Origin: Escherichia coli phage NG_A1 | Length of the DNA: 64,000 nucleotides | Sequence record: LC788705.1 | Reading direction: 5' to 3' (one strand) | Part shown: positions 25,858-60,905 of the stretch, in pieces | Layout: each line of letters opens with the position of its first letter | How positions within the stretch are numbered: position 1 is the stretch's first letter | Translations under genes and position numbers: made by a program | The notes under the pieces: model-generated | Told to the model about the DNA's origin: nothing | Database searches by the model: none | What the model saw: only the letters and a program-made list of their open reading frames with translations

Positions 25858-25888
25858 ATTTAAACTCCTCTCTCAAATTTATGAATCT

Positions 25889-25917
25889 ATTATACAGAAA
25901 AATTTTCCTGAAAGCAA
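25889..25917 (-). promoter_or_regulatory. Early promoter
   Basis: Minus-strand TTGCTT-N17-TATAAT plus conserved AAATTTGAGAGAGG leader. Confidence 0.65.
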
Positions 25918-25925
25918 ATAAATTT

Positions 25926-26384
25926 TTAATTTGGATAGAGTTCGGACTTAAAATTAGCCCTAACTTTTTTAGCCTCTTCTATAGTATTGCACTGCTGGTA
26001 CTTACGAATAGACCCTTTCTGCATTAGCACACAGTATTTATCGCCCCTCATGTAGATATTAGGCTCGCCCAACTTATTGTCTTTACGTACATTAATATTG
26101 TGCATTTGCTTAGATCTATTGGAGTCTTCTAAATTCTCTATAAAGTTGCAATCTTTAATCCTGTTTTTGTGGTCTATCTCTTCTGGTATATACCCCTTAT
26201 GATATAAGAATACCAGCTGATGCTCTCCCCAGTGCCTACGCTTAAACCCTATTCTTATATACCCTTTATGTTTACCCCCGGCAAACTTACCTACTAGACT
26301 CTTCTGTCTTGTTTTCTTCCATTTAAGATGGCCTGTTTCAGGATCATACTCAAAAGCCTCCCTAACCTCTTCCTGTGTTATCAT
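25926..26384 (-). CDS. HNH homing endonuclease
   Basis: HNH motif (EEIDHKNRIKDCNFIENL...SNRSKQ). Confidence 0.75.
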   Translation of the reverse strand: MITQEEVREAFEYDPETGHLKWKKTRQKSLVGKFAGGKHKGYIRIGFKRRHWGEHQLVFLYHKGYIPEEIDHKNRIKDCNFIENLEDSNRSKQMHNINVRKDNKLGEPNIYMRGDKYCVLMQKGSIRKYQQCNTIEEAKKVRANFKSELYPN

Positions 26385-26622
26385 TTTCTTTAATCAATTC
26401 TCCCAATTCTCTATAGATTTGATCTAACTCAAAAGATATACGTAATGATATACTTTGCTTTCTCTGCTTTAGCAACCATGCGCCTATACCATTTATGGAT
26501 GCTAGTCTAGCAGGAACCACCCTACATAGCTTTTCCGAAGTATCATAAACAGGAACTTTACGTTCTTTTACTGGAAACTTCCTTGTTTCCCATTTTTTAT
26601 TCTTCACTGTCATTTCTAGCAC
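26362..26622 (-). CDS. Hypothetical protein
   Basis: 86-aa ORF overlapping neighbours. Confidence 0.35.
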   Translation of the reverse strand: MLEMTVKNKKWETRKFPVKERKVPVYDTSEKLCRVVPARLASINGIGAWLLKQRKQSISLRISFELDQIYRELGELIKENDNTGRG

Positions 26623-29386
26623 CTAGCTCTGACATTGCTTCATCGTGCATATGTTTTTCCTCGTCAGTCATGAACTTATAAGGAATCGGCATACATTCGA
26701 TTTTACAATAGGTTCTGTACCAGTCTACTATATTTTCAGTGTTCATATCCTTACCAATACCCATCATACCAAGATACATTCTTGCATATTTTGGATTAGC
26801 ACTCTGACCTGTTTTAAGGAAGAAGTCCTTCTTCTTACCTTTCAGAGCTTCTATGAATGGTTTAATGGTCACATTTGAACACTTCTTAATATCTTCCCAG
26901 AACATCTCGTGCATCTTATGAAAGAATGCAGCTCGATCATTTGGTTTATCTTTGATATATTGTTCAACATGCTCAACTGTTACATCTTTAATAGACTCAA
27001 GATGATAATAGCGAACAAGAAGTAGTTTAGCTTCATACGCATCTGCATGACGTGGGGCACAGTAATCCGGAGTTGAATGTAGGATAGCTTTGATTCGCTC
27101 TTCTGTATATTCTTTGCCTGCACCTTCGATAGTTCCCCAGCTTTCACTGAAAATATCAATAGTTGCACCCTGATCAAGCAAGTAATAACGTAAGGTACTA
27201 GTATAGTTCCTAGATTCCAGCTCCCTACGACGTGCGTATAATTGCTGTGCTAACTCCAGCCAACCCTCATCAATATTATATTGTTCAGAACCTGCGGAGA
27301 ATCCACTCGTAGATTTATCAATAAAGTAATAAATGTTCTGAGCACCACGGTCGCGCCTGATTGCTTGGAAACGCATGTTTGGCGCTTGGTTGCTGGTTCT
27401 AGTAATAACGAATACGTTATCAAAATAGTTGAAGTCAACGCCACTTGTTACGGATGGACTACATAATAAGCAATCAATTTGTTGGTCAATTAGCTCATTA
27501 GTTGTGTAATCCAGAATACGTCGAATATCTACATCGGATGTAGAATTTGAGTGGATTTCCTTAACTAACGCACCCGTATTACGACGCAATGCCATGCCCT
27601 TCTCATTCAGTTCATCCGGTCCACAGTCAGATACTAGGATAGATTTCTCACCCATCTCTAGAGAAGTCTGAAGTGCAACCCAAATACTGGATTCATCAGG
27701 GAACTCATAAGCATGAGCTTTTGACAGCATTTTACGGTGATGATTATAAAATGCAACTGGTTTATCAAACTCAATCAAAGAACCATATGCTTCAATTGTT
27801 TCTGCACTAATATCCCCATCAGATAATATAATGATTTTTGCAGTTGCAAGAATATCCCGAAGAACCTGAATACATTCACGACGTTGTTTAACAACCGGGG
27901 CGAATAATAGGTCGTTCATTACTGCATCACATTCATCGATAAAGATTGCATCAATTTGACCAATAAAACTCTTGAACTTATGCAAAGAGTGAATAGTTGT
28001 GGACATACGGTCAATAGCACCACGCTTAAAATTAAGCATATCTACAGACTTATCGTATTGTCCTGCACTAAATTTCTTAGCATTTGAAGATACCAGTGCT
28101 CTAGTATTGGTAATTGCTAAAAAATTACCTTTAATAACTCCTGAATCTAACCAACGCACAACCGCCGTGGTTTTACCTGTGCCTAAACTCGCTTTTACAA
28201 AAGTCATATAACCTTCTGGTGGCACAGTATTTAGTTTCAAGAAATTATCAGTTTCTAGAGAATTAGTTTCTAGCTTTTTAAGTGGAATACCTTTTAAAAT
28301 ATCGGGTATATCGCGTTTAGAATTATTAACAAACGCTTTCAGAGCCTGCTTACGACCGTTATTAAAATAATCTTGAATATTACGACTGTTATCTTTAGTT
28401 GCGATATATTCTGATAAGGCTGGACGGATTTCTTTTTCTAGCCATGCAAAATCAACACCATCCTCTAATGCTCTATGGTATAGTTTGGGGATAATACGCA
28501 AGTACACCCCATCCTCAGCTTCTTCTAGTTCGCTGATAGTTTCCTCTACTTTATCAGAGGCAGCTTTTTTACCTTTAATTTGATCGAGTAAAGAGTAAAA
28601 CTCCTCCTTAAACTCACCTCTAGTTGTTTCATAGTCAACCAGATTATTTGGTAAATTTACTTTAGAACCTTTAACAAATACCAGACGTGAAGCACCCTCC
28701 GCTTTAAACGGATCTACTATACCATCGGTAAATAACGGATCTGCAAAATAATGGAGCTGTACGGAAGAGTAATAAGCTAAGTCGGCAATATCAAAGCCGT
28801 ACTTTTGTCTACTACTTTCATTGATAGATGTAAATAAGAATTTGATTTGACCCTGAGTTACTTTAACATTAGATTCTAGTATTAAGTGCATTCGGATACC
28901 TGGTTTTAGCCCAGCCGAAGACGATGCATGAGCGATAAACCCTGCATCAAGAGGAAACATATCCTCACTAATACTATTTAACATCCTAATAATATGTCGA
29001 GCCATGCCAACAAGATCAAACTTGTTACAACCACCTGTATCTACAATACCATCCACGTCCATTGCAATTATATGACTTGGGTTAGATACATTAAAGTTGC
29101 CCTTCTTACGTCGCACATTATTTTTAGGTGCAAGACATCGACCTCGTACCGCAACGATATGAGGGTCAGACGTTAAACGTCTCATAAGAGGAAGCATTTC
29201 TACTAGGGTTTGAGGATCAACTTCATCAATTACATCAAACTTGAAGGGCATTGAGGCTGGTTTACCTTCAGGATGCTTTGAGGAAAATCTTTTAGCAAAA
29301 AGATAGTCTTCTGCTTTAACTTCTCGCCAATTGCCTGTGGCTAAATCGCGATGAAATCCTGCATGACCTTGTAGGATTGAGAACAT
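26597..29386 (-). CDS. Replication origin-binding-protein-like SF2 helicase
   Basis: About 929 aa; Walker A (GTGKTT), DExD-like Walker B (IFIDECDAV); start placed at ATG 29386 with AGGAG RBS, not the TTG at 29464. Confidence 0.7.
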   Translation of the reverse strand: MFSILQGHAGFHRDLATGNWREVKAEDYLFAKRFSSKHPEGKPASMPFKFDVIDEVDPQTLVEMLPLMRRLTSDPHIVAVRGRCLAPKNNVRRKKGNFNVSNPSHIIAMDVDGIVDTGGCNKFDLVGMARHIIRMLNSISEDMFPLDAGFIAHASSSAGLKPGIRMHLILESNVKVTQGQIKFLFTSINESSRQKYGFDIADLAYYSSVQLHYFADPLFTDGIVDPFKAEGASRLVFVKGSKVNLPNNLVDYETTRGEFKEEFYSLLDQIKGKKAASDKVEETISELEEAEDGVYLRIIPKLYHRALEDGVDFAWLEKEIRPALSEYIATKDNSRNIQDYFNNGRKQALKAFVNNSKRDIPDILKGIPLKKLETNSLETDNFLKLNTVPPEGYMTFVKASLGTGKTTAVVRWLDSGVIKGNFLAITNTRALVSSNAKKFSAGQYDKSVDMLNFKRGAIDRMSTTIHSLHKFKSFIGQIDAIFIDECDAVMNDLLFAPVVKQRRECIQVLRDILATAKIIILSDGDISAETIEAYGSLIEFDKPVAFYNHHRKMLSKAHAYEFPDESSIWVALQTSLEMGEKSILVSDCGPDELNEKGMALRRNTGALVKEIHSNSTSDVDIRRILDYTTNELIDQQIDCLLCSPSVTSGVDFNYFDNVFVITRTSNQAPNMRFQAIRRDRGAQNIYYFIDKSTSGFSAGSEQYNIDEGWLELAQQLYARRRELESRNYTSTLRYYLLDQGATIDIFSESWGTIEGAGKEYTEERIKAILHSTPDYCAPRHADAYEAKLLLVRYYHLESIKDVTVEHVEQYIKDKPNDRAAFFHKMHEMFWEDIKKCSNVTIKPFIEALKGKKKDFFLKTGQSANPKYARMYLGMMGIGKDMNTENIVDWYRTYCKIECMPIPYKFMTDEEKHMHDEAMSELGARNDSEE

Positions 29387-29885
29387 AACAATACTCCTGT
29401 GTTGGAAATAAAATAAGTTTTCTTTAGGACTATTCAGAAAGAATAGAACAACTGTTACTGTCAATTTCTCAACAAATTAATCGCAAATACTGAAGTGGGG
29501 TGGCAACTTCCACTTTCACGCTGCGCTGCTGCTTTGCTATATCGCACAAATCCTTGAGGATGGCCGCTAAGCCAGATTTGCTCACCTAATGCTTCATATA
29601 CTAGCTCATACTAGATGCAATATAACTTACAGAATCACGTCTCGGAGTTTTTCACTCCTCCCATCTCACTTCACAACCACCTCATACTAGGTTGCTTCGA
29701 GGCCTTACCAGGGTTCCTATGGGACGCAGATCGCTAAGTATTCTATTAACTATTTGTTTAAAAACTAACACGTAACAGTTAAAACAACCCTTAATGGGGC
29801 AGCCTAACTGTTCCGTATCGCGGATTGTAAACAAGAAAAATTAGCAAAATCAATTTTTACTAATGTCTCTCAATTCAATATAAAT

Positions 29886-29914
29886 ATTATATCAAGATTT
29901 TGGGCATCCTGCAA
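29886..29914 (-). promoter_or_regulatory. Promoter driving the long non-coding leader upstream of the origin-binding-protein gene
   Basis: Minus-strand TTGCAG-N17-TATAAT; about 480 nt of ORF-free transcript would precede the gene. Confidence 0.55.
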
Positions 29915-30005
29915 GTAAAATTTTCCGGATGGTGCTATCATTGGTCTTGAGTACGGATAAAACCGAGCCAAAATGACTCGGTAATCAGAGTTCAGCTAAT
30001 AAAAA

Positions 30006-30398
30006 TCATTCATCATTTAAGCCTGGAACATAAATCCCAACACGGTTTAATTGTTCTTTAGCTTCTTTGAGAATATCTGGAGTGTACTCCCAAATATCAT
30101 CTTCCACCTGTAAAAGATGGGGCGAACAACCATCATCCGACACACGACATATGGCCAAACCACGTGGGTGGAACAAAGAGAAATTTAGGGCAACAATTAA
30201 ACCCATAGCAGACAACTCATTCCAATCCAACTCCCATTCCCCCGCGTAGCCGGATAGGAAAACACCAACACAGGGATCATCTATTTGCTGCTCCGGAAAA
30301 GTGAAGGAGGCTTGTCTTACCCCCAACCAACGTTGCAGCAGCTTCTCCCCACGTTTCACCAAACTAGGATCAATCTGACGCCAATATACTTGTTCCAT
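30006..30398 (-). CDS. Hypothetical protein, tandem paralog A
   Basis: 130 aa; shares PC(V/I)G...W.EL..MGL..ALN..LF.P...PGL pattern with 30408-30836. Confidence 0.5.
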   Translation of the reverse strand: MEQVYWRQIDPSLVKRGEKLLQRWLGVRQASFTFPEQQIDDPCVGVFLSGYAGEWELDWNELSAMGLIVALNFSLFHPRGLAICRVSDDGCSPHLLQVEDDIWEYTPDILKEAKEQLNRVGIYVPGLNDE

Positions 30399-30407
30399 TC
30401 TGCCTCC

Positions 30408-30836
30408 TTAAGCAGTTAAACCTGGGATCATATACCCGAAACGTCGAAGTTTCTGAATCCCCTCATTTACTTCTTCCGGTGAGTAAGACCAACCATAACG
30501 TTCATTAACCTGAAAACCAGGAGATTCACTAGTTTTATAGTTAACAACAAGGCGATGCTTAGCAGGCATAAACAGCTTATAATTTAACGCAAAAACTAAG
30601 CCCATTTCGTCTAACTCTTTCCAGCCCACAATCTCTTCAAGACCCTCCTCTACCTGCACAATTAAACCAATACAGGGAGCCTCATCAATATCATCTTTAA
30701 AAGCAAAGGAGATTTCGTTATTCTCACACCATATTTTCAAAGAGTTAATAGCCTCATTATACAGGCTAGCTGGGAGAGTACGCCAAAAGTTAGCCAAAAT
30801 TGGGTTAGCTTTTTTAGAGAATACATTATTGAACAT
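30408..30836 (-). CDS. Hypothetical protein, tandem paralog B
   Basis: 142 aa; paralog of 30006-30398. Confidence 0.5.
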   Translation of the reverse strand: MFNNVFSKKANPILANFWRTLPASLYNEAINSLKIWCENNEISFAFKDDIDEAPCIGLIVQVEEGLEEIVGWKELDEMGLVFALNYKLFMPAKHRLVVNYKTSESPGFQVNERYGWSYSPEEVNEGIQKLRRFGYMIPGLTA

Positions 30837-30838
30837 AT

Positions 30839-31345
30839 TTACACCTTAAATTGTTGCAAGGATTTACACATTTCAAGATCTGGGCTAAATTCTAGCATAT
30901 AGCTAACAGCTTTTAAATCTTGAAGATTTATCCCAGTCCTACCATTGACTATAACCGTTGGATACTGGTACATCATAGCACCAGCGTCATCCAGAACACA
31001 CCAATGTTTGAGCTTATGCTTTTCAACGAAGCGAAGAACAGAATTACCCCTAGATAATCCACCCCCAGTAAAATCCGTTGTACCAAGAAAACGATCGATA
31101 AGACCTAATCCGGTCATAATCTGAACGTTCTCCATCTCATTCCTGACAGAGAACCATGAGGATACTCCAACAATCATTATCGGAGAAGGACGAATAAAGT
31201 CCTGAAAAGCCTTGAGAAGCGGTTTGAAAACCCAATCACTTCCAAAGAAAATCTTTTCGTCATCAGGTGCATGATGGTGGGAGATGCTCGAATTGAGCAC
31301 CCCATCAATATCTAGAAAAATAATTGGAGTATTACTTATTTCCAT
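30839..31345 (-). CDS. HAD-superfamily phosphatase-like protein
   Basis: N-terminal DxDGV motif (IIFLDIDGVLN) and later VLDDAG typical of HAD hydrolases. Confidence 0.6.
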   Translation of the reverse strand: MEISNTPIIFLDIDGVLNSSISHHHAPDDEKIFFGSDWVFKPLLKAFQDFIRPSPIMIVGVSSWFSVRNEMENVQIMTGLGLIDRFLGTTDFTGGGLSRGNSVLRFVEKHKLKHWCVLDDAGAMMYQYPTVIVNGRTGINLQDLKAVSYMLEFSPDLEMCKSLQQFKV

Positions 31346-31541
31346 TTTTGTTCCTTTCTAAGAACCTATCATACTCAACCGTATCAACATATATAACACC
31401 ATAGTCATCGGATTTATAGTCCATCTCCCACAGCTCACAGCGATAGCACCAACTACCATCCGCCCATACAAATATATCATCGGGGTGTGTATACACAGAT
31501 TTAACTATGGACATACCTGTTTCCCTTGCTTCTCGACACAT
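31332..31541 (-). CDS. Hypothetical small protein
   Basis: 69-aa ORF overlapping neighbours. Confidence 0.35.
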   Translation of the reverse strand: MCREARETGMSIVKSVYTHPDDIFVWADGSWCYRCELWEMDYKSDDYGVIYVDTVEYDRFLERNKNGNK

Positions 31542-32337
31542 AAGGTCTACCCTCTAAATGAGCTTCTACACGAGCAATAAAATCAGGATCACTAAAAGCA
31601 TCTACCGCACCTTTACTCCAGTAAGGGACACCACGTTCTTCCAGCTGGTACATCTCACTACGAGTCATACCTTGATAGCCCGGTTCCGCCGCGAGGGCAC
31701 TATCATAGTAGTTAACTACCATAAATTTCGCAGCAGTCCTATTAAGAACAGGAAATAATTCCCAGTAGAAGTTAATTACTTGGTTAGAGCAACCAACCAC
31801 AATGATCATATCTTGACTGGTAATACCATCAAAAACATTATACATTTCTGCGTATGCAGGAGCATGCTCTCCAAAGAAGATTACATTAGGTTTAACCCAT
31901 TTATAATCATCTGGATCAATAGAATTGTATCCTACATCAATAATCCGTTTATTGCTACTATTGTAGCTATCAGCTACAACAACCTCTTTTAAATATCCGT
32001 GAATATGCAGAATGTCACTATGTGGAACGCCAGCACGCTCAATAAGGTCATCAACGTTGGTAGTCAAGTTTACTACTTGACCTGGATATTGTTTATACCA
32101 TTCACCAATACGCAAATGCGCAAGATTGGGTTCAACAGTTTTTAGCTCTTCACGACGCTTGTTGTAAAACATATGGGTTTTATGATAAAAATTACCACGA
32201 AAGGCATGAATATTACATACTTCTTCTAGATCATAGTCATCCCACAATGCTTTACCACTAGCAGTATCAGTACGGAAGGCTCGTACACCACTTTCAACAC
32301 TCAAACCCGCACCACTAATAATAATTAATCTACGCAT
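31501..32337 (-). CDS. Sir2-family (sirtuin-like) NAD-dependent enzyme lacking the zinc ribbon
   Basis: Sirtuin motifs GAGxS...G...FR (ISGAGLSVESGVRAFR), TQN(I/V)D-like (LTTNVDDL), catalytic HG (ILHIHG); no CxxC...CxxC zinc module. Confidence 0.65.
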   Translation of the reverse strand: MRRLIIISGAGLSVESGVRAFRTDTASGKALWDDYDLEEVCNIHAFRGNFYHKTHMFYNKRREELKTVEPNLAHLRIGEWYKQYPGQVVNLTTNVDDLIERAGVPHSDILHIHGYLKEVVVADSYNSSNKRIIDVGYNSIDPDDYKWVKPNVIFFGEHAPAYAEMYNVFDGITSQDMIIVVGCSNQVINFYWELFPVLNRTAAKFMVVNYYDSALAAEPGYQGMTRSEMYQLEERGVPYWSKGAVDAFSDPDFIARVEAHLEGRPYVSRSKGNRYVHS

Positions 32338-32551
32338 TTTTCACCTGTTCTCTGAAGTTTTGCCCAATACTGTCTAATAGCTCAGCTAATTCTTTATTGC
32401 CTTTCTCCATTAAGGTATTAGCAATAACTTCTAGCATAGTAGCGCAGGATTCAACACCATCCTTATAGCCAGTTTCCCAGTGCTGCATTAATGCGTTTTC
32501 CAAAGCGGCGTTTAAACCCTTATCTGGTAGCATCGGCTTCGAGAATGCCAT
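32330..32551 (-). CDS. Hypothetical protein
   Basis: 73-aa ORF. Confidence 0.4.
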   Translation of the reverse strand: MAFSKPMLPDKGLNAALENALMQHWETGYKDGVESCATMLEVIANTLMEKGNKELAELLDSIGQNFREQVKNA

Positions 32552-46147: not shown

Positions 46148-46786
46148 ATGACTACTCGTATTTCTAAAACTCGCGCTCTGGCAACTATCAAATCTCTGGA
46201 AGCTAAAATCCGTAAAGCTACTGAACAACAGCTTCTGATCGCTGTTGGTGAAGGTAAGGATAAAAATAAGGTTGTAGTTGGCGCTGCAATCGAAGTAGAC
46301 GATCTATCTGCTCGTATTAAGGCAGATTTCCAATCTCTCCTAGATATGATGTCCCAGCGTGATCGTATCAAAGCTGCTCTGATTAAGAGCAATGCGGAAA
46401 CAATCGTTGAGATTGGCTCTTGTAAGATGACTGTTGCGGAAGCAATTGAAGCTAAGCGTTCTATGGAGCTTAAAGCTCAGCTGCTGGCTAACATGCGTAA
46501 GCAGTTCCATGCCGCTACGGTTAAGTTTAATACGCAGAAAGCACAGTTTGATGCTAAATATGAGCGTTTGCAGGATAGCATGGCTACTCGCGATAAGAAA
46601 ACTTCCGAAGATGAAGTTAAAATGCAGCTCAACCTGCTGGAACTCAAGAATACTCCATTCTTGATTGATCCGCTGGAACTGGAGAAGCTGATTAAGCAGC
46701 ATGACGAGGAATACCAGGACTTTGCAACAAATGTTGACTTTGTTCTGTCCGAGTCTAACGCCTCTACCTTCATTGAAGTAGAGTAA
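46148..46786 (+). CDS. Hypothetical coiled-coil protein
   Basis: 212-aa ORF with GGAAG RBS. Confidence 0.5.
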   Translation: MTTRISKTRALATIKSLEAKIRKATEQQLLIAVGEGKDKNKVVVGAAIEVDDLSARIKADFQSLLDMMSQRDRIKAALIKSNAETIVEIGSCKMTVAEAIEAKRSMELKAQLLANMRKQFHAATVKFNTQKAQFDAKYERLQDSMATRDKKTSEDEVKMQLNLLELKNTPFLIDPLELEKLIKQHDEEYQDFATNVDFVLSESNASTFIEVE

Positions 46787-47551: not shown

Positions 47552-48001
47552 ATGAAGACAGCTTTGCTTTTAGTAGCTGCCCTTACCTTCAGCTTTAGTA
47601 GTCAGGCATCGCACGATGCAAAAGAAATAGATTGCATTGCTAAAAATATCTATTTCGAAAGTCGTGGTGAGGGCATAAAGGGAATGACGGCGATTGCACA
47701 TGTTACTAAAAACCGTGTAAACTCCGGTAAATTCCCAGATTCCTACTGTAAAGTAGTATATCAGTCTAACCAGTTCTCTTGGGTATCTAAGAGACCAAAA
47801 GTTGATAAAACTGATGAGGCTTGGCAAACCGCCAAGAATTTAGCTAGAGTGATATACTACGTTGATTTACCACAAGATCCTACACATGGAGCTTTATACT
47901 TCCATAGTGGTAAAGATAAACCATACTGGACAAAGAAGTTTAAGAAAACAACTAAGATTAAGGGACATACATTTTATAAGCCTGTTGTCACTAAAACTTA
48001 A
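47552..48001 (+). CDS. Secreted cell-wall hydrolase, SleB/CwlJ-like
   Basis: Signal peptide (MKTALLLVAALTFSFSSQA), Hydrolase_2-like core (NIYFESRGEG...TKNRV...FHS); AGGAG RBS. Confidence 0.65.
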   Translation: MKTALLLVAALTFSFSSQASHDAKEIDCIAKNIYFESRGEGIKGMTAIAHVTKNRVNSGKFPDSYCKVVYQSNQFSWVSKRPKVDKTDEAWQTAKNLARVIYYVDLPQDPTHGALYFHSGKDKPYWTKKFKKTTKIKGHTFYKPVVTKT

Positions 48002-48720: not shown

Positions 48721-49732
48721 ATATTCATAAATTAGAGAACAGCGAGCCGATTACGCTGAACTTGTCTTAATGTAAGATGCGTCGAGCACTAAGATTCGTT
48801 GAATAGAGTCGGTGGGTTAGTTGTAAAACTAGTACACAGGGGGCGGCAATCCCGGTTAGTGGCTAGAACGTGTAAAATGAGGCGTCTGAAACCTCTCCCC
48901 TAAACTCTTCTCTAATTTATAAATAGTGGGGTGTGGAAATCACTTATGTAGTAACACTGCCGTCCTAGTATAATTGGTATTATCAAGCCGTAACTGGTGG
49001 AAGATGTAGGTTCGAATCCTACGGTCGGTAAGAACTGGATAACTGATGCTTTTAATGTAAAAGCTTCCGAGGTTAGTTGCGCACTGCCTAAACCACGCGG
49101 TAGTTGGTTCCAGACTAACCAACCAGTCTGCTGAATAGTTTTATTACGATTTAACTATGTCCAGGCTAAAGAAGAACTTTAGAAGGTATTCTAGGATAGT
49201 GAAGTTCTTTCTCCATATCGGAGTAGTTTTTCAAGCTATCCACAAAGTGGGAAATGCTGACATGAGAGATGTCACTAATGGTGCACAATAGCACAGGTAA
49301 TTCGCGATAACTCCTGTTGAGTAGCAGCAAAAGGTGGGAAGTCATGACCCCAAGCCTAACCGAGTCCTCAATATACCGCAGGACATAACTACTAAGTCAC
49401 CCTGACTTAAACTGGAAAATAATAGACGTTACTGTATTTTGTCTTGAAATACTTAATGAGTGAGACTTATGACTCTCCCGGTATCGTCTGTATTTTTAAG
49501 AGTTTTTACGAGAGTTCTTAAAAATACTTAAACGGGGTGTAGTCTAAGGGAGAGGCAGGAGTCTTCTAAATTCCTTTATGCAGGTTCGAATCCCTTGTCA
49601 CGCACCAAATTTGATGGTCAGAGTAAATTAAACCTACTATCTCGGTTGAGCTGTTTTAATGGGTTCGAATCCCAGCGAGGCGTAACTGCCTGGTGTGATA
49701 GAGGCATCATTCCACTAACATTGGAAAAACTA

Positions 49733-55821: not shown

Positions 55822-55856
55822 CCAGCCTGCACTTTTGCGACTGGGCTATTTTTATA
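55822..55856 (+). terminator. Rho-independent terminator
   Basis: GCCCAG...CTGGGC stem followed by TATTTTT. Confidence 0.7.
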
Positions 55857-55868
55857 ATAAAATTTTAG

Positions 55869-55928: not shown

Positions 55929-56627
55929 ATGAGGATTATTTCTAAGTTCGCCGATGTGTATGATTTGCAGAACAGTTTGTTCGACCCAGATCGTGTGTGG
56001 GAACGTAAAACCGAGGAGTTGCTGGTTAAAGTAACCGATGATGCAGAAAAGAACATTGTGCATACTCGCCAGGTATTTCGTGATGGTTCGCTATCTTTCC
56101 GTGGTGATTTCGAATACTTTGTAAACCCACTATTTGTTGCGGGTGAAGTTTACTGGTTACACGAGCTGTACTGCTGGCATCCAACATTTAGCTTCAAAAC
56201 GTTCGACCTCGACACTATGTTCGATAAAATGGAAGAGATGGGATTGCATGCTCGCTCTTACTTAATGGATAAGAGTCGTGGAGATGTTCGTGAAACAATG
56301 CGTGATCTGCTCGCTGAAGCAAAACCTAAAGCAGAACGTATCTTATCCGAACTGCGTGTACCGATTGCATATGTGAAAGGTATTAAAAAGAACGATAACG
56401 ATGATGTTCGTAACTTCGTAATTCAGACTAACATTCGTTTCCATCAGTCCGGTATTCCGTGGCAGGAAATTGAAAGTAACTTATACCGTTTACACCAAGT
56501 TCTCGAACAGTATATCTTCGGTGTACTAGGAACTGGTGAGCCTGATATGATTAAAGTATCAGATAAAGACAGGTTAGCAGCGCATGGATTTGATACAAAA
56601 ACTTCTTTCAGGAATATGGCACGGTAA
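55929..56627 (+). CDS. Hypothetical protein
   Basis: 232-aa ORF with GAGGA RBS. Confidence 0.5.
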   Translation: MRIISKFADVYDLQNSLFDPDRVWERKTEELLVKVTDDAEKNIVHTRQVFRDGSLSFRGDFEYFVNPLFVAGEVYWLHELYCWHPTFSFKTFDLDTMFDKMEEMGLHARSYLMDKSRGDVRETMRDLLAEAKPKAERILSELRVPIAYVKGIKKNDNDDVRNFVIQTNIRFHQSGIPWQEIESNLYRLHQVLEQYIFGVLGTGEPDMIKVSDKDRLAAHGFDTKTSFRNMAR

Positions 56628-57033
56628 GTGGTATATCCTGGGAGCAGGTCTAGCGATAGGCATCGGGTTCGGTGCTTATCACTTAGTAGATAAAGTGGAG
56701 ACTTTAGCAGGAGATCTTGCGGTAGCTACTAAAAAGATTTCTTCTCTAGAGACTTCCCTCAATAAGGTGAAAGGTGAAAGCGAACTTCGTGAGACTAGAA
56801 TGAATCAGTATTTCACAATGAATAATATTTCGCAAGCAGATCTAGACAAAAAGATTAAGCAGTTAGACAAAGCTCTTAGTCGCCAAGATATTATAGCTGC
56901 AAAGCCTGGATTGGTAACATTAATTGCTAAAAAGCAGAGTAAAGAGTTCGAGGAAAGATTAGCATGTTTAACTGGAAACTTGGAATACTGCTCGCAGCCG
57001 CAATCACAATCACAGGCTGTGCAGAAGAAATAA
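56584..57033 (+). CDS. Putative i-spanin (inner-membrane anchored coiled-coil protein)
   Basis: N-terminal TM helix (WYILGAGLAIGIGFGAY) followed by coiled-coil periplasmic domain; gene overlaps a lipoprotein gene. Confidence 0.5.
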   Translation: MDLIQKLLSGIWHGKWYILGAGLAIGIGFGAYHLVDKVETLAGDLAVATKKISSLETSLNKVKGESELRETRMNQYFTMNNISQADLDKKIKQLDKALSRQDIIAAKPGLVTLIAKKQSKEFEERLACLTGNLEYCSQPQSQSQAVQKK

Positions 57034-57317
57034 AACCAGAGCCATCTCATGAGTTAAAGCAAGCTCATGTAGACTGGCCTAAAGGACTTCAACCTTGTAG
57101 CTTTGACTTTAAGTTTGAAAAGAAAGTAGCTACAAATGGAGAAGATGGCGTAGTAGTTGTTGTACCATATAAAGATTGGAATATGTTGGCAAAATGCCGT
57201 GAGGCAGAATATTCATATATTTCACGACTGACAAGTATGGTTTGCTTCTATCGCCAAGATTTACAAGAAAAACGTTGCTTAGTTTACTATCCACCCATTA
57301 CAAATAGGAAAGATTAA
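56964..57317 (+). CDS. Putative o-spanin (outer-membrane lipoprotein)
   Basis: Signal peptide with lipobox (LLAAAITITGC), several periplasmic Cys; starts inside the 3' end of the i-spanin-like gene in another frame. Confidence 0.5.
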   Translation: MFNWKLGILLAAAITITGCAEEIKPEPSHELKQAHVDWPKGLQPCSFDFKFEKKVATNGEDGVVVVVPYKDWNMLAKCREAEYSYISRLTSMVCFYRQDLQEKRCLVYYPPITNRKD

Positions 57318-58069
57318 TGTCAGTATTAGTCGGTTTACATGGTGAAGCTGGTTCGGGAAAAGATACCGTTGCAAAATTAATTATCGATTGGTGTAATGAC
57401 ACGTATCCAACGTGTTTACCCCGTCGTTATAGTTTTGCTAAGCCCGTTTATGAACTTGCATCCGTAATCCTCGGTGTAACTCCGGAGTTTCTAGGAGAGC
57501 GCAGGGGAAAAGAGGTTGACCAATGGTTTACGGTCACACAATCTCAATTGGAGCGAGCCAGAGATGTGTGGTTTAAGTATGGTATCGATAAGTTTGAAGA
57601 CTTCTCGTACGTTTGGCCTATTTTTGAGGAAAAATATCTTAATCCTCAACAACTTATCTCAGAGAGTAAAAAAGACGGACTTTATAGTTTATTTATTTCT
57701 CCGAGAAAAATGTTACAGCTCGTAGGGACAGAGCTAGGAAGGCAGCTGGTGCATGAACGCATTTGGCTCATAATTCTGGAGCAATCCATCGCTAAAGACG
57801 ACCCAGATGTCGCCGTAATAACAGATGTTAGATTCCCCAATGAAGGAGAGTTACTCAGAGAAACAAACCATTTAGATATGGATTCTTTGATAGTAAATGT
57901 AGTACCCGCTGAGCAGAAGTTCACTATTAAATCAGATCATCCATCTGAAAGTGGTATTCCTGCAAAATATATTACTCACGAATTAGTTAATAAATTCGAT
58001 GGTATCAATAACCTTAAACTAGAAGTTTATAACTTCTGTGACTTAGAGCTAGAACCACTAGTTGGATAA
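57317..58069 (+). CDS. Deoxynucleoside monophosphate kinase-like P-loop kinase
   Basis: P-loop GLHGEAGSGKDT; 250 aa. Confidence 0.65.
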   Translation: MSVLVGLHGEAGSGKDTVAKLIIDWCNDTYPTCLPRRYSFAKPVYELASVILGVTPEFLGERRGKEVDQWFTVTQSQLERARDVWFKYGIDKFEDFSYVWPIFEEKYLNPQQLISESKKDGLYSLFISPRKMLQLVGTELGRQLVHERIWLIILEQSIAKDDPDVAVITDVRFPNEGELLRETNHLDMDSLIVNVVPAEQKFTIKSDHPSESGIPAKYITHELVNKFDGINNLKLEVYNFCDLELEPLVG

Positions 58070-58081
58070 TCAAGGATCACT

Positions 58082-58681
58082 ATGACTAATAAAAAAGAAG
58101 AAAAGACTAACCTGTTTCACTCCATTCGCCAATCTAATGAGTATACCTTTTTCTTTGATGAAGAATTAGGCCCGCCGGATGAATACCGTGATTTATCAAT
58201 GGTACTTATGCAAGCAAATGAGGACGACGAAATTAATCTGATGATTAATGGCCCTGGTGGTTATGTTGATACTGCTGCACAGTTATCTAACTTAATTGCT
58301 AATTGCCGTGGAACAGTTATAGGACATCTGGTTGGTCCTAGTGCTTCTGCTTACTGCACAATTTTCCTATCCTGTCATGGGTGGGTAGTACATCCACATG
58401 CTACGCTAATGGGACACACGTTCTCTGGCGGATTCTGTGAGAAGGGTCAAGAAATCAAGAAAGCCTATGAATCTTACAACAAGTTCGTAGAAGATATGAT
58501 GCTAGATGTCTACTATCCGTTTTTCTCAATAGACGAAATCGATGAGATGGTAAAAGACAACAAAAATATCTATCTAGATAGCAAAGAAATCCATAAGCGT
58601 ATTGAAATCTTGGCAAAATATCGATCTGAGCAGTATAATAAAGCCCAGTTACCTCAATCAGAGGAGCATAAAGAAGAGTAA
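58082..58681 (+). CDS. ClpP-like serine protease
   Basis: ClpP-type motif LMINGPGGYVDTAAQL with downstream Ser and His candidates. Confidence 0.55.
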   Translation: MTNKKEEKTNLFHSIRQSNEYTFFFDEELGPPDEYRDLSMVLMQANEDDEINLMINGPGGYVDTAAQLSNLIANCRGTVIGHLVGPSASAYCTIFLSCHGWVVHPHATLMGHTFSGGFCEKGQEIKKAYESYNKFVEDMMLDVYYPFFSIDEIDEMVKDNKNIYLDSKEIHKRIEILAKYRSEQYNKAQLPQSEEHKEE

Positions 58682-58684
58682 GTA

Positions 58685-58712
58685 GTTTTAAGCCAGGGTT
58701 TAACGACCCTGG
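58685..58712 (+). terminator. Rho-independent terminator
   Basis: GCCAGGG...CCCTGGC stem followed by TTTTCTTTT. Confidence 0.75.
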
Positions 58713-58784
58713 CTTTTCTTTTATCTAAAATTCTTCTTGACAACGACAAAATTTTGTGCTCCAAAGAAAATCTTTAAAAACACA

Positions 58785-58813
58785 TTGTAATTTTCCTCCA
58801 AAATTAGTATAAT
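58785..58813 (+). promoter_or_regulatory. Promoter of lysis cassette
   Basis: TTGTAA-N17-TATAAT; weaker -35 than the early promoters. Confidence 0.5.
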
Positions 58814-58837
58814 GGTACTGGTTAGAGGAGGTTACAA

Positions 58838-59494
58838 TTGGAAAAGTTCTTACAATTATTAACGGTACTGCTCCAAGAAGCGAAAGATCCAGCATCGCTT
58901 CTTAAACGTCTGCTAACTATCTTAGTTGCTGTCATTATTTTCTTATTTGTTAGTAATACTAGCGAGGTGATGTCATTCTTAAAGACTTTCTCCACGTCTG
59001 CGGTTCTACAGGATGTTCAAACTCAAAGGATAGATAACTTTCCTAATGTAGCTAGAGAAAAGAGCATGGTACTCTTTTCTCAAACGGGTGCGGATGCTGT
59101 TTTTGTAGTCAAGTATAAACCCGATGCCATTAATGATTATTCTAACATTATTGCATGGGAAAGCAATGCGCAATTAGATAGGGCTGACTTGGCCGATAAA
59201 GCAGTAAATAAAACGTCTGAGCTATACAGACGTCACTTAGAGGGCTTTAACTACGCATCGGATTTAAGTGTAAGAGTAAATAAATATACGGGGTTAAATA
59301 TACCTGCGTTTAAGAACGTTACTTTTAATTACATATACACTTGTCCATATTTCAATCTAAACAATATCTATGCTGGATATATTGGTATTGCTTGGAAAGA
59401 TAATCCTGTAGATGCAGCCGATTCTGAGAAATTTAAGGAATATTTAACAAAGCTCTGTTCCCCACAACAGAGATCTTTAGGTAGATCAATATGA
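58838..59494 (+). CDS. Putative holin (single N-terminal TM)
   Basis: 218 aa, TTG start 6 nt after GAGGAGG; TM helix LTILVAVIIFLFV; immediately upstream of and overlapping the endolysin gene. Confidence 0.55.
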   Translation: MEKFLQLLTVLLQEAKDPASLLKRLLTILVAVIIFLFVSNTSEVMSFLKTFSTSAVLQDVQTQRIDNFPNVAREKSMVLFSQTGADAVFVVKYKPDAINDYSNIIAWESNAQLDRADLADKAVNKTSELYRRHLEGFNYASDLSVRVNKYTGLNIPAFKNVTFNYIYTCPYFNLNNIYAGYIGIAWKDNPVDAADSEKFKEYLTKLCSPQQRSLGRSI

Positions 59495-59904
59495 GTTTTA
59501 AATTTGGTAAAAATAGCGAAAAACAATTAGCTACCGTTAAGCCAGAGCTACAAAAAGTAGCTCGTAGAGCTTTAGAATTATCTCCATATGATTTCACGAT
59601 CGTACAGGGTATTCGTACAGTAGCACAAAGTGCCCAGAATATTGCTAATGGTACTTCATTTTTAAAAGATCCTAGTAAAAGCAAGCATATTACTGGGGAT
59701 GCCCTTGATTTTGCTCCATACATTAATGGCAAAATTGATTGGAATGATTTAGAAGCATTTTGGGCAGTTAAAAAGGCTTTTGAACAAGCGGGTAAAGAAC
59801 TAGGCATTAAACTTCGTTTTGGTGCTGATTGGAATGCTTCGGGAGATTATCACGACGAAATAAAACGTGGTACCTATGATGGCGGTCATGTCGAACTAGT
59901 TTAA
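59491..59904 (+). CDS. Endolysin, L-alanyl-D-glutamate peptidase type
   Basis: 137 aa; VanY/peptidase M15-like metal-binding pattern (H...D...H: KHITGDALDF...GGHVEL). Confidence 0.8.
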   Translation: MSFKFGKNSEKQLATVKPELQKVARRALELSPYDFTIVQGIRTVAQSAQNIANGTSFLKDPSKSKHITGDALDFAPYINGKIDWNDLEAFWAVKKAFEQAGKELGIKLRFGADWNASGDYHDEIKRGTYDGGHVELV

Positions 59905-59981
59905 TTAATAACTGAGGCGGGAATATTCCCGCCTTTTTAGGCAAAGGGGGCTTTAATAATTTTTGAAGATAGGAGAAAGCC

Positions 59982-60398
59982 ATGTTTGCAGAACTATTCA
60001 CTATGATGCTGCTAGGTATCTGGAAAATAAGTCTAGTAGTATTCGTTTTAATGATAGTCTTTACTATCATTGCATTAACTACCCGAAATAGCTTATTAAT
60101 AAAGGTTATTCACGGACTAGAGTATATAATTATGGGTTCATTCGGCGTTTGTAAATGCAATTGCCATAGAGATACGAAATATTGTTGGTTATGGATGGAA
60201 CTAGAGAATCCTATATCCATAGCTTTGGCTGTTTCATTCGGTATGATTCTTATGGCCCTTACTCTAGCATTAATACCTTTGATGTTAGCTGGGGGAGTTA
60301 CAGCGTATTTCACCCTTTTCTCCCCGATACTTATGTACTCAATTTACCCAATAACTATGTATCTAGTTAGGAAAAAATTTATACATACAGTAGATTAA
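59982..60398 (+). CDS. Polytopic membrane protein (possible lysis regulator)
   Basis: 138 aa with about four hydrophobic helices; AGGAGAAAGCC RBS. Confidence 0.45.
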   Translation: MFAELFTMMLLGIWKISLVVFVLMIVFTIIALTTRNSLLIKVIHGLEYIIMGSFGVCKCNCHRDTKYCWLWMELENPISIALAVSFGMILMALTLALIPLMLAGGVTAYFTLFSPILMYSIYPITMYLVRKKFIHTVD

Positions 60399-60411
60399 GA
60401 TAAAAAAGTAG

Positions 60412-60440
60412 TTGACTTTTAGCCCTAGTTATTATATAAT
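60412..60440 (+). promoter_or_regulatory. Early promoter
   Basis: TTGACT-N17-TATAAT. Confidence 0.65.
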
Positions 60441-60473
60441 ATATACATAAATTAGTTAAGAGAGGTATATATT

Positions 60474-60905
60474 ATGTCTGATCGTTTCTATACTCAAATG
60501 GCGGAACATTTTCGTATACCACATTACGAGCTAAACATTGCACTCCGTGATCATGACTCTCCTGAGTACAAAAAGCTCGAAAAGAAAGCGGAAAAATCTA
60601 TTGATACAAAGGTAGGTGCATCTATGTCTAAGGGCAAAAAGTTAACTCGTCTTGATCTTAATAAAATTTTAACTGAACTTTTGGGTACTGATATTGAAGG
60701 TGCTAAATTACCGCTTCTTGTACTAGAGACTATGATTAAAAAGGTCAAAAATAAAGAATATAAGAAGGTAGAAGTCCCGGAAGGCAGATTAAAAGCTCCT
60801 TATCAGGAAGCATTAACCGAGTGTTTGGGTGTAAATCTTGATCTAAGCACCGCAACCGTAAAAACTATGAAAAACTTCTTAGAGGCCATTAATAACTATG
60901 AGTAA
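60474..60905 (+). CDS. Hypothetical protein
   Basis: 143-aa ORF with GAGAGG RBS. Confidence 0.5.
   Translation: MSDRFYTQMAEHFRIPHYELNIALRDHDSPEYKKLEKKAEKSIDTKVGASMSKGKKLTRLDLNKILTELLGTDIEGAKLPLLVLETMIKKVKNKEYKKVEVPEGRLKAPYQEALTECLGVNLDLSTATVKTMKNFLEAINNYE

What the first reader, a model, noticed from the sequence alone, without database searches (positions are those of the whole stretch)
56584..60398. Lysis functions split into two loci with a signal-peptide SleB-like hydrolase elsewhere
An overlapping i-spanin/o-spanin-like pair (56584-57317) is separated from the holin-endolysin pair (58838-59904) by a dNMP-kinase-like gene and a ClpP-like protease gene. A second, secreted cell-wall hydrolase (SleB-like, 47552-48001) lies 9 kb away. 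A ClpP-like protease inside the lysis neighbourhood and a signal-peptide hydrolase may indicate additional control of lysis timing or ejection-stage wall remodelling.
Basis: partly seen in the sequence, partly recalled or inferred. Interest (0 to 1): 0.35.

Follow-up and report, generated by a model that had tools for sequence, protein, structure and literature searches.

The report
Standard T5-phage lysis genes, already annotated
This is the normal, already described set of cell-bursting genes of a bacteriophage T5 relative (spanin pair, holin, endolysin and a second SleB-type wall hydrolase), laid out as in T5 itself, so it is ordinary.

Summary
Window 56000-60500 is 98.3% identical over its full length to T5_ev212 and EC148, and 454 phage records match. 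Every gene is 92-100% identical in protein to T5 T5.038-T5.047 and T5.083. The T5 RefSeq record and phage DaisyDussoix carry the same order and names: i-spanin, o-spanin, dNMP kinase, Clp-like protease, holin, endolysin. The endolysin differs from the solved EndoT5 structure (PDB 2MXZ) by one residue.

The literature already covers the T5 overlapped spanin family (PMC6139136). It also covers the T5-like lysis cassette (PMC4342426) and the SleB-domain "endolysin far from holin" (PMC11180984, PMC3326045).

The idea that the ClpP-like protease or the SleB-like hydrolase tunes lysis gets no support:
- A terminator and a promoter separate the protease from the holin.
- Outside Demerecviridae its homologues sit beside PhoH, nucleotide-metabolism or uncharacterised genes, not annotated lysis genes.
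- In BF23 the Clp protease, not the SleB-like protein, appears in virion proteomics, "function unknown".

Side observation: a roughly 7.2 kb tRNA-region deletion, not seen in any database relative, explains the short 9 kb distance.

The parts
55835..55863 (+). Promoter-like site upstream of the T5.047-like gene; probable start of the spanin-dnk-protease operon
   Evidence: TTGCGA-17-TAAAAT, 9 of 12 matches. T5 RefSeq annotates a promoter at the same relative place, upstream of T5.047. This is a consensus match only.
55929..56627 (+). T5.047 homologue, 232 aa, function unknown; overlaps the i-spanin start by 44 nt
   Evidence: 95% identical to T5.047. PHROG 4243, unknown function. No Pfam hit.
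56584..57033 (+). i-spanin (T5.045 homologue): N-terminal membrane anchor, periplasmic domain, two conserved C-terminal Cys (C128, C136)
   Evidence: PHROG 739 'Rz-like spanin', E=5.7e-37. 92% identical to T5.045. Annotated i-spanin in DaisyDussoix. Hydrophobic peak ILGAGLAIGIGFGAYHL at aa 18-34. Cys invariant in My1 and Klebsiella relatives.
56964..57317 (+). o-spanin (T5.044 homologue): outer-membrane lipoprotein precursor; gene overlaps the i-spanin by 70 nt in another frame
   Evidence: PHROG 812, E=5.1e-30. Lipobox ITGC with Cys19 and Ala at +2. 95% identical to T5.044. G18, C19 and C45/C78/C94/C105 invariant at 44-47% identity.
57317..58069 (+). dNMP kinase (dnk, T5.043 homologue); its ATG shares one base with the o-spanin stop codon. 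Contains the T5 nick-site consensus at 57499.
   Evidence: Pfam PF21448, E=4.4e-11. PHROG 139. 98% identical to T5 dnk. GAGCGCAG context conserved where T5 annotates a major single-chain interruption.
58082..58681 (+). ClpP-like serine protease homologue (T5.042), function unknown. Ser89 and His112 are conserved; Asn162 sits at the position of the ClpP catalytic Asp.
   Evidence: Pfam PF00574, 33.7 bits against a cut-off of 20.2. PHROG 1827, E=1.8e-90. PDB ClpP 3Q7H, E=1.9e-5, with alignment. S89 and H112 invariant in 7 divergent phage homologues. 98.5% identical to T5.042.
58690..58715 (+). Intrinsic terminator ending the spanin-dnk-protease transcription unit
   Evidence: 11-bp stem with 6 GC pairs, followed by TTCTTTT. 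T5 RefSeq annotates a rho-independent terminator at the same place.
58785..58813 (+). Promoter-like site for the holin-endolysin unit
   Evidence: TTGTAA-17-TATAAT, 10 of 12 matches. T5 RefSeq annotates a promoter directly upstream of the holin.
58838..59494 (+). T4-T-type holin (T5.041 / gene C1 homologue): TTG start behind AGGAGG, one TMD at about aa 20-38, large periplasmic domain with Cys169 and Cys207
   Evidence: Pfam PF11031, E=2.8e-112. PDB 6PXE, T4 holin T periplasmic domain, E=8e-16, with both Cys aligned. KD peak 2.44. 95% identical to T5.041.
59491..59904 (+). Endolysin, L-alanyl-D-glutamate peptidase (EndoT5, T5.040 lys); 4-nt ATGA overlap with the holin gene; no signal sequence
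   Evidence: 136 of 137 residues identical to PDB 2MXZ/8P3A, E=1.3e-90, single I72L change. PHROG 465.
59916..59938 (+). Intrinsic terminator after the endolysin gene
   Evidence: GGCGGGAATATTCCCGCC followed by TTTTT, read directly from the sequence. T5 RefSeq annotates a terminator between lys and T5.039. The consensus scan did not list it.
59982..60398 (+). T5.039 homologue, 138 aa, about four TMDs, Cys-rich loop CKCNCH...C; function unknown.
   Evidence: PHROG 5944, unknown function, E=1.2e-82. Hydrophobic peaks. The T5 note reads 'contains four transmembrane domains'. 50% identical homologue at the same position in a Klebsiella phage; no homologous ORF at that position in My1.
47552..48001 (+). 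SleB/CwlJ-type (Hydrolase_2) cell-wall hydrolase with a Sec-type signal peptide (T5.083 homologue)
   Evidence: Pfam PF07486, E=2.4e-25. PDB 4F55, B. cereus SleB catalytic domain, E=2.7e-8, with the YxESRGE motif aligned. 97% identical to T5.083. Annotated 'SleB putative cell wall hydrolase' or 'endolysin' in many T5-like records.

Best explanation
The window comes from a Tequintavirus (T5-like virulent siphophage). The finding is that genus's ordinary early-region lysis gene set.

**Mechanism.** Steps 1-3 are inferred from homology to experimentally studied proteins.
1. The T4-T-type holin has one TMD and a large periplasmic domain. It accumulates in the inner membrane and at its trigger time opens holes.
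2. The soluble cytoplasmic EndoT5-type Zn peptidase passes through the holes and cuts the L-Ala-D-Glu bond of the peptidoglycan stem peptide.
3. The i-spanin is an inner-membrane anchor and the o-spanin is an outer-membrane lipoprotein. The two span the periplasm. Once the wall is gone they fuse or disrupt the outer membrane.

**Transcription.** The genes form two adjacent early transcription units.
- Unit 1: T5.047-like, i-spanin, o-spanin, dnk and ClpP-like, tightly packed or overlapping, ending in a terminator.
- Unit 2: holin and endolysin, with their own promoter and terminator.

The dNMP kinase is a nucleotide-metabolism enzyme. The ClpP-like protein is a conserved protease homologue of unknown role. 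Both are best read as neighbours by family synteny, not as lysis components.

**SleB-like protein (T5.083).** It is a conserved, probably Sec-exported, second muralytic enzyme of unknown role.
For: - **Identity to known phages.** 98.3% identity over 100% of 56000-60500 to T5_ev212 and EC148; 454 matching records. Proteins are 92-100% identical to T5.038-T5.047 and T5.083.
- **Same annotation elsewhere.** Identical order and names in T5 RefSeq, including the promoter and terminator between protease and holin, in DaisyDussoix and in FGS009.
- **Family assignments**. Endolysin equals PDB 2MXZ apart from one residue. Holin periplasmic domain is homologous to T4 T, PDB 6PXE.
- **Spanin features.** Conserved at 38-47% identity.
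- **Terminators and promoter in the window**.
- **Literature.** T5 spanin family, overlapped architecture, T4 spanins not near t/e, and T4 pseT.2/pseT.3 complementing lambda Rz/Rz1 (PMC6139136). [quoted passage not shown] SleB-domain endolysins far from the holin in Tequintavirus and Epseptimavirus (PMC11180984). AKFV33 lysozyme, holin and SleB in the early region (PMC3326045).
Against: - Nothing in the sequence contradicts this reading.
- Function of the T5-family spanins and holin rests on homology and sequence features, not on experiments with this phage.
- The coiled-coil character of the i-spanin was not computed.
- The roles of the ClpP-like and SleB-like proteins are unknown.
- The dnk-protease-(holin)-endolysin order is conserved across three Demerecviridae subfamilies, so a functional link cannot be excluded.
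Confidence: 0.93

Rival explanations
1. The ClpP-like protease (T5.042 homologue) is a real lysis-timing component. For example, it could degrade or process holin, antiholin, spanin or a host factor. On this reading its position between the spanin and holin-endolysin genes is functional.
For: - The dnk, ClpP-like, (holin), endolysin order is kept in Pectobacterium My1, Klebsiella and Vibrio Demerecviridae.
- In Vibrio phage 70E35-4 the protease ORF directly abuts the endolysin.
- It is one of only 8 core genes above 80% identity among 185 Tequintavirus genomes (PMC12639943).
Against: - A terminator plus a promoter separate it from the holin unit.
- In the Rheinheimera and Pseudomonas phages examined, the homologue sits next to PhoH, dCMP deaminase, DNA ligase, methylase or uncharacterised genes, not annotated lysis genes.
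- It is cytoplasmic: no TMD and no signal.
- It was detected in BF23 virion preparations with 'function currently unknown'.
- PHROG relatives are head-maturation proteases.
- The ClpP Asp171-equivalent position is Asn162 here, so even its catalytic competence is uncertain.
Confidence: 0.05
2. The Sec-exported SleB-like hydrolase (T5.083 homologue) is a second, holin-independent endolysin or wall-remodelling enzyme. It would contribute to lysis, or to ejection-stage wall opening.
For: - Hydrolase_2 domain with the ESRGE motif aligned to B. cereus SleB.
- PHROG 938 and related families are labelled endolysin.
- SleB-domain proteins are annotated 'putative endolysin' or 'endolysin' in phiEcoM-GJ1-type phages.
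- It is present in essentially all T5-like records.
- The signal peptide would place it in the periplasm without a holin.
Against: - No experimental data were found. PMC11180984 explicitly says which endolysin is used remains to be studied.
- It is not among the BF23 virion proteins, which argues against an ejection role.
- It lies in a separate early operon, about 9 kb away here and about 19 kb away in T5.
- T5 already has a complete holin, endolysin and spanin set.
Confidence: 0.12
3. The overlapping 'spanin' ORFs are chance reading frames rather than genes.
For: Short overlapping ORFs are common in AT-rich phage DNA. The o-spanin lies partly inside another gene.
Against: - Strong PHROG matches, E=5.7e-37 and 5.1e-30.
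- Both frames stay open, with the lipobox Cys and all periplasmic Cys invariant at 38-47% identity.
- The pair is curated as the T5 spanin family in the spanin census (PMC6139136).
Confidence: 0.01

Closest known systems
Bacteriophage T5 genes T5.040 (lys, EndoT5), T5.041 (holin, C1), T5.042 (Clp-like protease), T5.043 (dnk), T5.044/T5.045 (o-/i-spanin), T5.039 and T5.083 (SleB-like)
   Same: Same genes in the same order and on the same strand, with the same terminator and promoter placement. Protein identity is 92-99%. The endolysin differs from the solved EndoT5 by one residue.
   Different: - The window lacks the HNH homing endonuclease hegF (T5.046) that sits between T5.045 and T5.047 in T5. 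As a result the T5.047 homologue overlaps the i-spanin start by 44 nt. The first ~14 residues of the i-spanin also differ from T5 and resemble the Klebsiella-phage version.
- The SleB-like gene is about 9 kb from the spanins rather than about 19 kb, because the tRNA region is shorter.
Phage T4 lysis genes: t (holin), e (endolysin), pseT.3/pseT.2 (i-/o-spanin)
   Same: - The holin belongs to the same Pfam family and has a homologous periplasmic domain with both Cys.
- The T5 RefSeq notes call T5.044/T5.045 similar to T4 PseT.2/PseT.3.
- The lysis genes are not in one cassette in T4 either (PMC6139136).
   Different: - T4's spanin genes are 'separated'; here they overlap by 70 nt.
- T4's endolysin is a lysozyme (muramidase, from general knowledge); here it is an M15 L-Ala-D-Glu peptidase.
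- Here holin and endolysin are adjacent and overlap by 4 nt; in T4 they are far apart.
- No RI/RIII antiholin homologue was looked for.
Lambda S-R-Rz/Rz1 and P2 lysB/lysC lysis cassettes
   Same: The same three-step logic: holin, endolysin, two-component spanin. The overlapped spanin architecture is the P2 lysB/lysC type (PMC6139136).
   Different: There is no sequence homology to lambda Rz/Rz1. In lambda Rz1 is fully embedded. In lambda all four genes form one late cassette. Here there are two adjacent early-region units, interrupted by dnk and a protease gene.
Bacillus SleB/CwlJ spore-cortex lytic enzymes (Pfam Hydrolase_2)
   Same: Catalytic-domain homology, E=2.7e-8 to PDB 4F55, including the YxESRGE motif.
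   Different: The phage protein is a bare catalytic domain behind a signal peptide, with no PG-binding N-terminal domain. Its substrate would be vegetative Gram-negative murein, not spore cortex. Activity is untested.

Membership tests
Two-component spanin (i-spanin + o-spanin), T5 family, overlapped architecture | i-spanin: a single N-terminal transmembrane anchor, with the rest of the protein periplasmic | tested here: met
   The only hydrophobic stretch is aa ~16-34 (WYILGAGLAIGIGFGAYHLV), 17-mer KD peak 1.56. It is Gly-rich and falls below a strict 1.6/19-mer cut-off. It is conserved in relatives.
Two-component spanin (i-spanin + o-spanin), T5 family, overlapped architecture | o-spanin: SPase II signal with a lipobox Cys and no inner-membrane retention residue (Asp) at +2 | tested here: met
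   MFNWKLGILLAAAITITG|C19-A20. G18 and C19 are invariant in T5, My1 and Klebsiella homologues.
Two-component spanin (i-spanin + o-spanin), T5 family, overlapped architecture | o-spanin gene starts inside the i-spanin gene in another frame and extends beyond it | tested here: met
   70-nt overlap with a frame offset of 2. The same arrangement is seen in T5 (22802-22871 overlap). T5 is listed as overlapped in PMC6139136.
Two-component spanin (i-spanin + o-spanin), T5 family, overlapped architecture | Periplasmic cysteines available for intermolecular disulfides | tested here: met
   i-spanin C128 and C136; o-spanin C45, C78, C94 and C105. All are invariant at 38-47% identity. The general rule comes from PMC6139136.
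Two-component spanin (i-spanin + o-spanin), T5 family, overlapped architecture | Sequence homology to recognised spanins | tested here: met
   PHROG 739, E=5.7e-37, and PHROG 812, E=5.1e-30. 92% and 95% identical to T5.045 and T5.044.
Two-component spanin (i-spanin + o-spanin), T5 family, overlapped architecture | Helical or coiled-coil periplasmic domain of the i-spanin; complex formation; outer-membrane disruption (complementation of lambda Rz/Rz1) | not tested
   No structure or coiled-coil prediction was run. Complementation is an experiment. For this family, only the T4 homologues are reported to complement (PMC6139136).
T4 T-type holin (Pfam PF11031) | Full-length profile match; single N-terminal TMD; large periplasmic C-terminal domain with a conserved Cys pair | tested here: met
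   PF11031, E=2.8e-112, over aa 3-217. One KD peak, aa 20-38. Homology to the T4 T periplasmic domain, PDB 6PXE, with C169 and C207 aligned to the T4 Cys. Both Cys are invariant in relatives.
T4 T-type holin (Pfam PF11031) | Hole formation and lysis timing; regulation by an antiholin | not testable with these tools
   Needs genetics or physiology. No RI/RIII homologue was searched for.
EndoT5-type M15 L-alanyl-D-glutamate peptidase | Near-identity to the biochemically and structurally characterised enzyme, with metal ligands retained and no export signal | tested here: met
   136 of 137 residues identical to PDB 2MXZ/8P3A 'L-alanyl-D-glutamate peptidase'. H66, D73 and H133 are present; I recall these as the Zn ligands, and did not check that here. 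No hydrophobic segment. The Pfam M15_4 hit is just below cut-off (23.2 against 25 bits), but identity to the solved enzyme settles membership.
ClpP (MEROPS S14) serine protease | Profile match above the curated threshold | tested here: met
   PF00574, 33.7 bits against a cut-off of 20.2, covering profile positions 39-139 of 182. PDB ClpP 3Q7H, E=1.9e-5.
ClpP (MEROPS S14) serine protease | Ser-His-Asp catalytic triad | tested here: inconclusive
   - Ser89 aligns with the GQAAS nucleophile and His112 with MIHQ. Both are invariant in 7 divergent phage homologues.
- The position aligned with ClpP Asp171 is Asn162 here and in T5. It is Asp in My1, Klebsiella and Vibrio homologues, Glu in two Pseudomonas phages, and Gln in the Rheinheimera phage. 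Asp159 lies three residues upstream.
- The E. coli numbering was checked on a sequence recalled from memory.
ClpP (MEROPS S14) serine protease | Tetradecameric barrel and partnership with a Clp ATPase | not testable with these tools
   No structure was predicted, and no ATPase partner gene lies adjacent. The database name 'ATP-dependent protease' is inherited from homology only.
SleB/CwlJ cell-wall hydrolase (Pfam PF07486 Hydrolase_2) | Full-domain profile match and a conserved catalytic-Glu motif | tested here: met
   PF07486, E=2.4e-25, over profile positions 1-100 of 100. YFESRGE aligns with YGESRGE of B. cereus SleB, PDB 4F55. That this Glu is the catalytic residue is from memory; the paper was not held.
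SleB/CwlJ cell-wall hydrolase (Pfam PF07486 Hydrolase_2) | Export to the periplasm through a cleavable signal peptide; muralytic activity | tested here: inconclusive
   An n-h-c pattern MK / TALLLVAALTFSF / SSQA|S is visible, but no signal-peptide predictor was available. Activity needs a zymogram.
T5-type dNMP kinase (Pfam PF21448) | Profile match, P-loop, and near-identity to characterised T5 dnk | tested here: met
   PF21448, 43.3 bits against a cut-off of 27.1. GEAGSGKD P-loop at aa 9-16. 98% identical to T5.043 dnk.

The most novel reading that the evidence does not exclude
The ClpP-like protease (with its non-canonical Asn at the triad Asp position), the Sec-exported SleB-like hydrolase, or both, could be genuine and so far unrecognised accessory lysis or envelope-remodelling factors of Demerecviridae. 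The four-TMD T5.039 protein, read through from the holin-endolysin unit, could be a further regulator. The evidence here neither supports nor excludes this. All three genes are conserved, uncharacterised, and sit in or next to the lysis units.
Probability: 0.1. Interest if true: 0.4.

Novelty: already known. Interest (0 to 1): 0.07.

Why it matters
It matters little as a discovery. The arrangement is the textbook and RefSeq layout of T5 and more than 400 sequenced relatives, and each element has been named in the literature.

Two things remain useful:
- Three conserved genes in or near the T5 lysis units are still untested: the Clp-like protease, the SleB-like exported hydrolase and the four-TMD T5.039.
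- This particular genome carries a tRNA-region deletion junction not present in any database relative.

Tried and rejected
- **Chance ORFs for the spanin pair.** Rejected by PHROG matches and cross-subfamily conservation of the lipobox and Cys residues.
- **Functional linkage of the ClpP-like gene to lysis, tested by synteny beyond the family.** In Barbavirus, Pakpunavirus and phage Kremar it sits with PhoH, nucleotide-metabolism or uncharacterised genes, so linkage is family synteny only.
- **A protease-holin fusion in Vibrio phage 70E35-4.** The 320-aa ORF there abuts the endolysin. Its extension is acidic and non-hydrophobic, so it is not a holin.
- **Direct alignment of the T4 pseT.2/pseT.3 genes.** I guessed the wrong T4 coordinates and did not repeat the attempt. 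Homology to T4 rests on the T5 RefSeq notes and on a 33%-identity, E=3e-7 hit in the 168-kb Proteus phage phiP4-3.
- **The SleB structure paper** (PMC3415495) is not held.
- **My1_037 as a T5.039 homologue.** The alignment shows it is not; it resembles T5.038.
- **Large-database searches.** The large protein searches, structure prediction and metagenome scans were deliberately not used. The phage-genome collection already gave near-identical annotated relatives.

Full report
**What is there**

| Coordinates | Length | Identity |
|---|---|---|
| 56584-57033 | 149 aa | i-spanin |
| 56964-57317 | 117 aa | o-spanin |
| 57317-58069 | 250 aa | dNMP kinase |
| 58082-58681 | 199 aa | ClpP-like protease |
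| 58838-59494 | 218 aa, TTG start | holin |
| 59491-59904 | 137 aa | endolysin |
| 47552-48001 | 149 aa | SleB-like hydrolase |

- PHROG 739 and 812, 'Rz-like spanin', E=5.7e-37 and 5.1e-30.
- Pfam DNMK.
- Pfam CLP_protease, 33.7 bits against a cut-off of 20.2.
- Pfam Phage_holin_T, E=2.8e-112.
- PHROG 465, endolysin.
- Pfam Hydrolase_2, E=2.4e-25.

**Where it comes from**

Megablast of 56000-60500 finds 454 phage records. The best match is 98.3% identical over 100% of the query, to Escherichia phages T5_ev212 and EC148. The records examined are Tequintavirus or other Demerecviridae.

Translated comparison with the T5 reference (NC_005859) gives these identities:

| Window protein | T5 gene | Identity |
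|---|---|---|
| i-spanin | T5.045 | 92% |
| o-spanin | T5.044 | 95% |
| dNMP kinase | T5.043 dnk | 98% |
| ClpP-like | T5.042 | 98.5% |
| holin | T5.041 | 95% |
| endolysin | T5.040 lys | 99.3% |
| four-TMD protein | T5.039 | 96% |
| SleB-like | T5.083 | 97% |

The T5 record shows exactly this order and these names, plus promoter and terminator features. BASEL phage DaisyDussoix annotates 'i-spanin, o-spanin, dNMP kinase, Clp-like protease, holin, endolysin'. The endolysin is the solved EndoT5 L-alanyl-D-glutamate peptidase (PDB 2MXZ/8P3A) with a single I72L change.

**Anatomy**

*i-spanin.* It has one Gly-rich hydrophobic segment near the N-terminus and two C-terminal Cys.

*o-spanin.* It has the lipobox ITG|C19 with Ala at +2, and four further Cys. 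Its gene starts 70 nt inside the i-spanin gene in another frame and runs beyond it, which is the overlapped architecture. These features are invariant in the Pectobacterium My1 and Klebsiella-phage homologues at only 38-47% identity, so the overlapping frames are real genes.

*Holin.* It has one TMD (aa 20-38). Its periplasmic domain is homologous to T4 holin T (PDB 6PXE), and both Cys are aligned.

*Gene packing in the first unit.*
- T5.047-like and i-spanin overlap by 44 nt.
- i-spanin and o-spanin overlap by 70 nt.
- The o-spanin stop and the dnk start share one base.
- dnk and the protease gene are 12 nt apart.

*Signals.*
- A strong hairpin plus T-run follows the protease gene (58690-58715).
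- A TTGTAA-17-TATAAT promoter-like site lies at 58785-58813.
- The holin has AGGAGG ahead of its TTG start.
- A second terminator follows the endolysin: GGCGGGAATATTCCCGCC-TTTTT, 59916-59938.

These signals coincide with the T5 annotation. There are therefore two adjacent early transcription units, not one cassette.

**How it works**

The mechanism is inferred from characterised homologues.
1. The T-type holin accumulates in the inner membrane and forms holes.
2. The soluble EndoT5-type peptidase reaches the murein and cuts the stem peptide.
3. [quoted passage not shown]

Kongari et al. (PMC6139136) list T5 as the type of a spanin family with overlapped members. They note that the T4 spanin genes are not near t and e. 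They also show that T4 pseT.2/pseT.3 complement lambda Rz/Rz1. Piya et al. [quoted passage not shown]

**The two 'extra' proteins**

*ClpP-like protease.* Ser89 and His112 align with the ClpP nucleophile and general base. Both are invariant in seven divergent phage homologues. The position aligned with ClpP Asp171 is Asn162 in the window and in T5. It is Asp, Glu or Gln in the other homologues.

The order dnk, protease, (holin), endolysin is kept across Demerecviridae: My1, Klebsiella phages and Vibrio phages. In Rheinheimera Barbavirus, Pseudomonas phage Kremar and Pakpunavirus, however, the homologue lies beside PhoH, dCMP deaminase, DNA ligase, methylase or unannotated ORFs. The linkage to lysis genes is therefore family synteny rather than a general association.

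BF23 virion mass spectrometry detected the Clp protease (ORF45) at low abundance and states that its function is unknown (PMC10644984). It is one of 8 core genes across 185 Tequintavirus genomes (PMC12639943).

*SleB-like protein.* It keeps the YxESRGE motif of B. cereus SleB and has a Sec-type N-terminus. It is present in essentially all T5-like genomes, under names such as 'SleB putative cell wall hydrolase', 'spore cortex-lytic enzyme precursor' or 'endolysin'. It is absent from the BF23 virion list, which argues against an ejection-stage role.

The literature has already remarked on it. Niu et al. 2012 (PMC3326045) mention it. Guzel et al. 2024 (PMC11180984) note 'endolysins, far from holin ... 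SleB domain' and say its use remains to be studied.

**Verdict**

The gene identifications are right. The layout is the known T5 layout, so the novelty class is 'already known'. The suggestion that the protease or the SleB-like enzyme tunes lysis or ejection is untested speculation. The comparative and literature evidence gathered here does not support it, and does not formally exclude it. Interest is low.

**Side observations**

*hegF.* The window lacks hegF (T5.046). Its i-spanin N-terminus resembles the Klebsiella-phage form rather than T5's.

*tRNA-region deletion.* The SleB-like gene is only about 9 kb from the spanins because about 7.2 kb of the tRNA region is missing relative to the closest relative, mar004NP2.
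- The junction lies in the shared T-loop GGTTCGAATCC. It joins the 5' part of tRNA-Arg(tct) to the 3' end of tRNA-Leu(tag).
- No record among 489 matches has this junction contiguous.
- From general knowledge, the T5 tRNA region is deletable, so this looks like a natural or laboratory deletion variant, or an assembly artefact.

Noticed in passing
window 49532-49607 (junction at about 49583-49602): About 7.2 kb of the tRNA region is missing relative to the closest relative, mar004NP2 (record 25200-32376). The missing stretch holds a T5.080-like lipoprotein, a T5.076-like primase-domain gene and 13 tRNAs. The breakpoint lies in the shared T-loop GGTTCGAATCC. It fuses the 5' part of tRNA-Arg(tct) to the 3' end of tRNA-Leu(tag), giving a chimeric and probably defective tRNA that ARAGORN still calls Arg. 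None of 489 matching phage records has this junction contiguous. It could be a natural or laboratory deletion variant, or an assembly artefact.
   Followed up: partly
window 56584-56627: The HNH homing endonuclease hegF (T5.046) of T5 is absent. The T5.047 homologue therefore overlaps the i-spanin start by 44 nt. The first ~14 residues of the i-spanin differ from T5 but resemble the Klebsiella-phage homologue. That pattern suggests T5's N-terminus was remodelled when hegF inserted.
   Followed up: partly
window 58082-58681 (codon 162): The ClpP-like protein has Asn162 where ClpP has the catalytic Asp171. The same position is Asp in My1, Klebsiella and Vibrio homologues, Glu in two Pseudomonas phages, and Gln in the Rheinheimera phage. 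Ser89 and His112 are invariant. Its catalytic status is uncertain.
   Followed up: partly
window 59982-60398: The T5.039 homologue has four TMDs and a Cys-rich loop (CKCNCH..C). It lies just behind the endolysin terminator with no obvious promoter of its own, so it would be expressed by read-through from the holin-endolysin unit. Its function is unknown (PHROG 5944). It is conserved in a Klebsiella phage at 50% identity, and My1 has no homologous ORF at that position.
   Followed up: partly
L006 3899-5249 (Vibrio phage 70E35-4): In this Vibrio T5-like phage the ClpP-like ORF is 320 aa, with a long acidic, non-hydrophobic C-terminal extension. It overlaps the endolysin start, and no T-type holin is annotated between them. 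Where that phage's holin is encoded was not investigated.
   Followed up: no
window 57499 (inside dnk): The GAGCGCAG context is conserved at the site where the T5 record annotates a 'major DNA single-chain interruption' (nick consensus Pu-GCGC). This phage probably carries the same genomic nick site.
   Followed up: no
L003 (NC_005859) features T5.036, T5.085, T5.083: Some RefSeq product names in this region look like propagated misannotations. An 81-aa protein is named 'major head protein' (T5.036). A 212-aa early-region protein is named 'tail fiber protein' (T5.085; window 46148-46786). The untested SleB-like T5.083 is named 'endolysin'.
   Followed up: no
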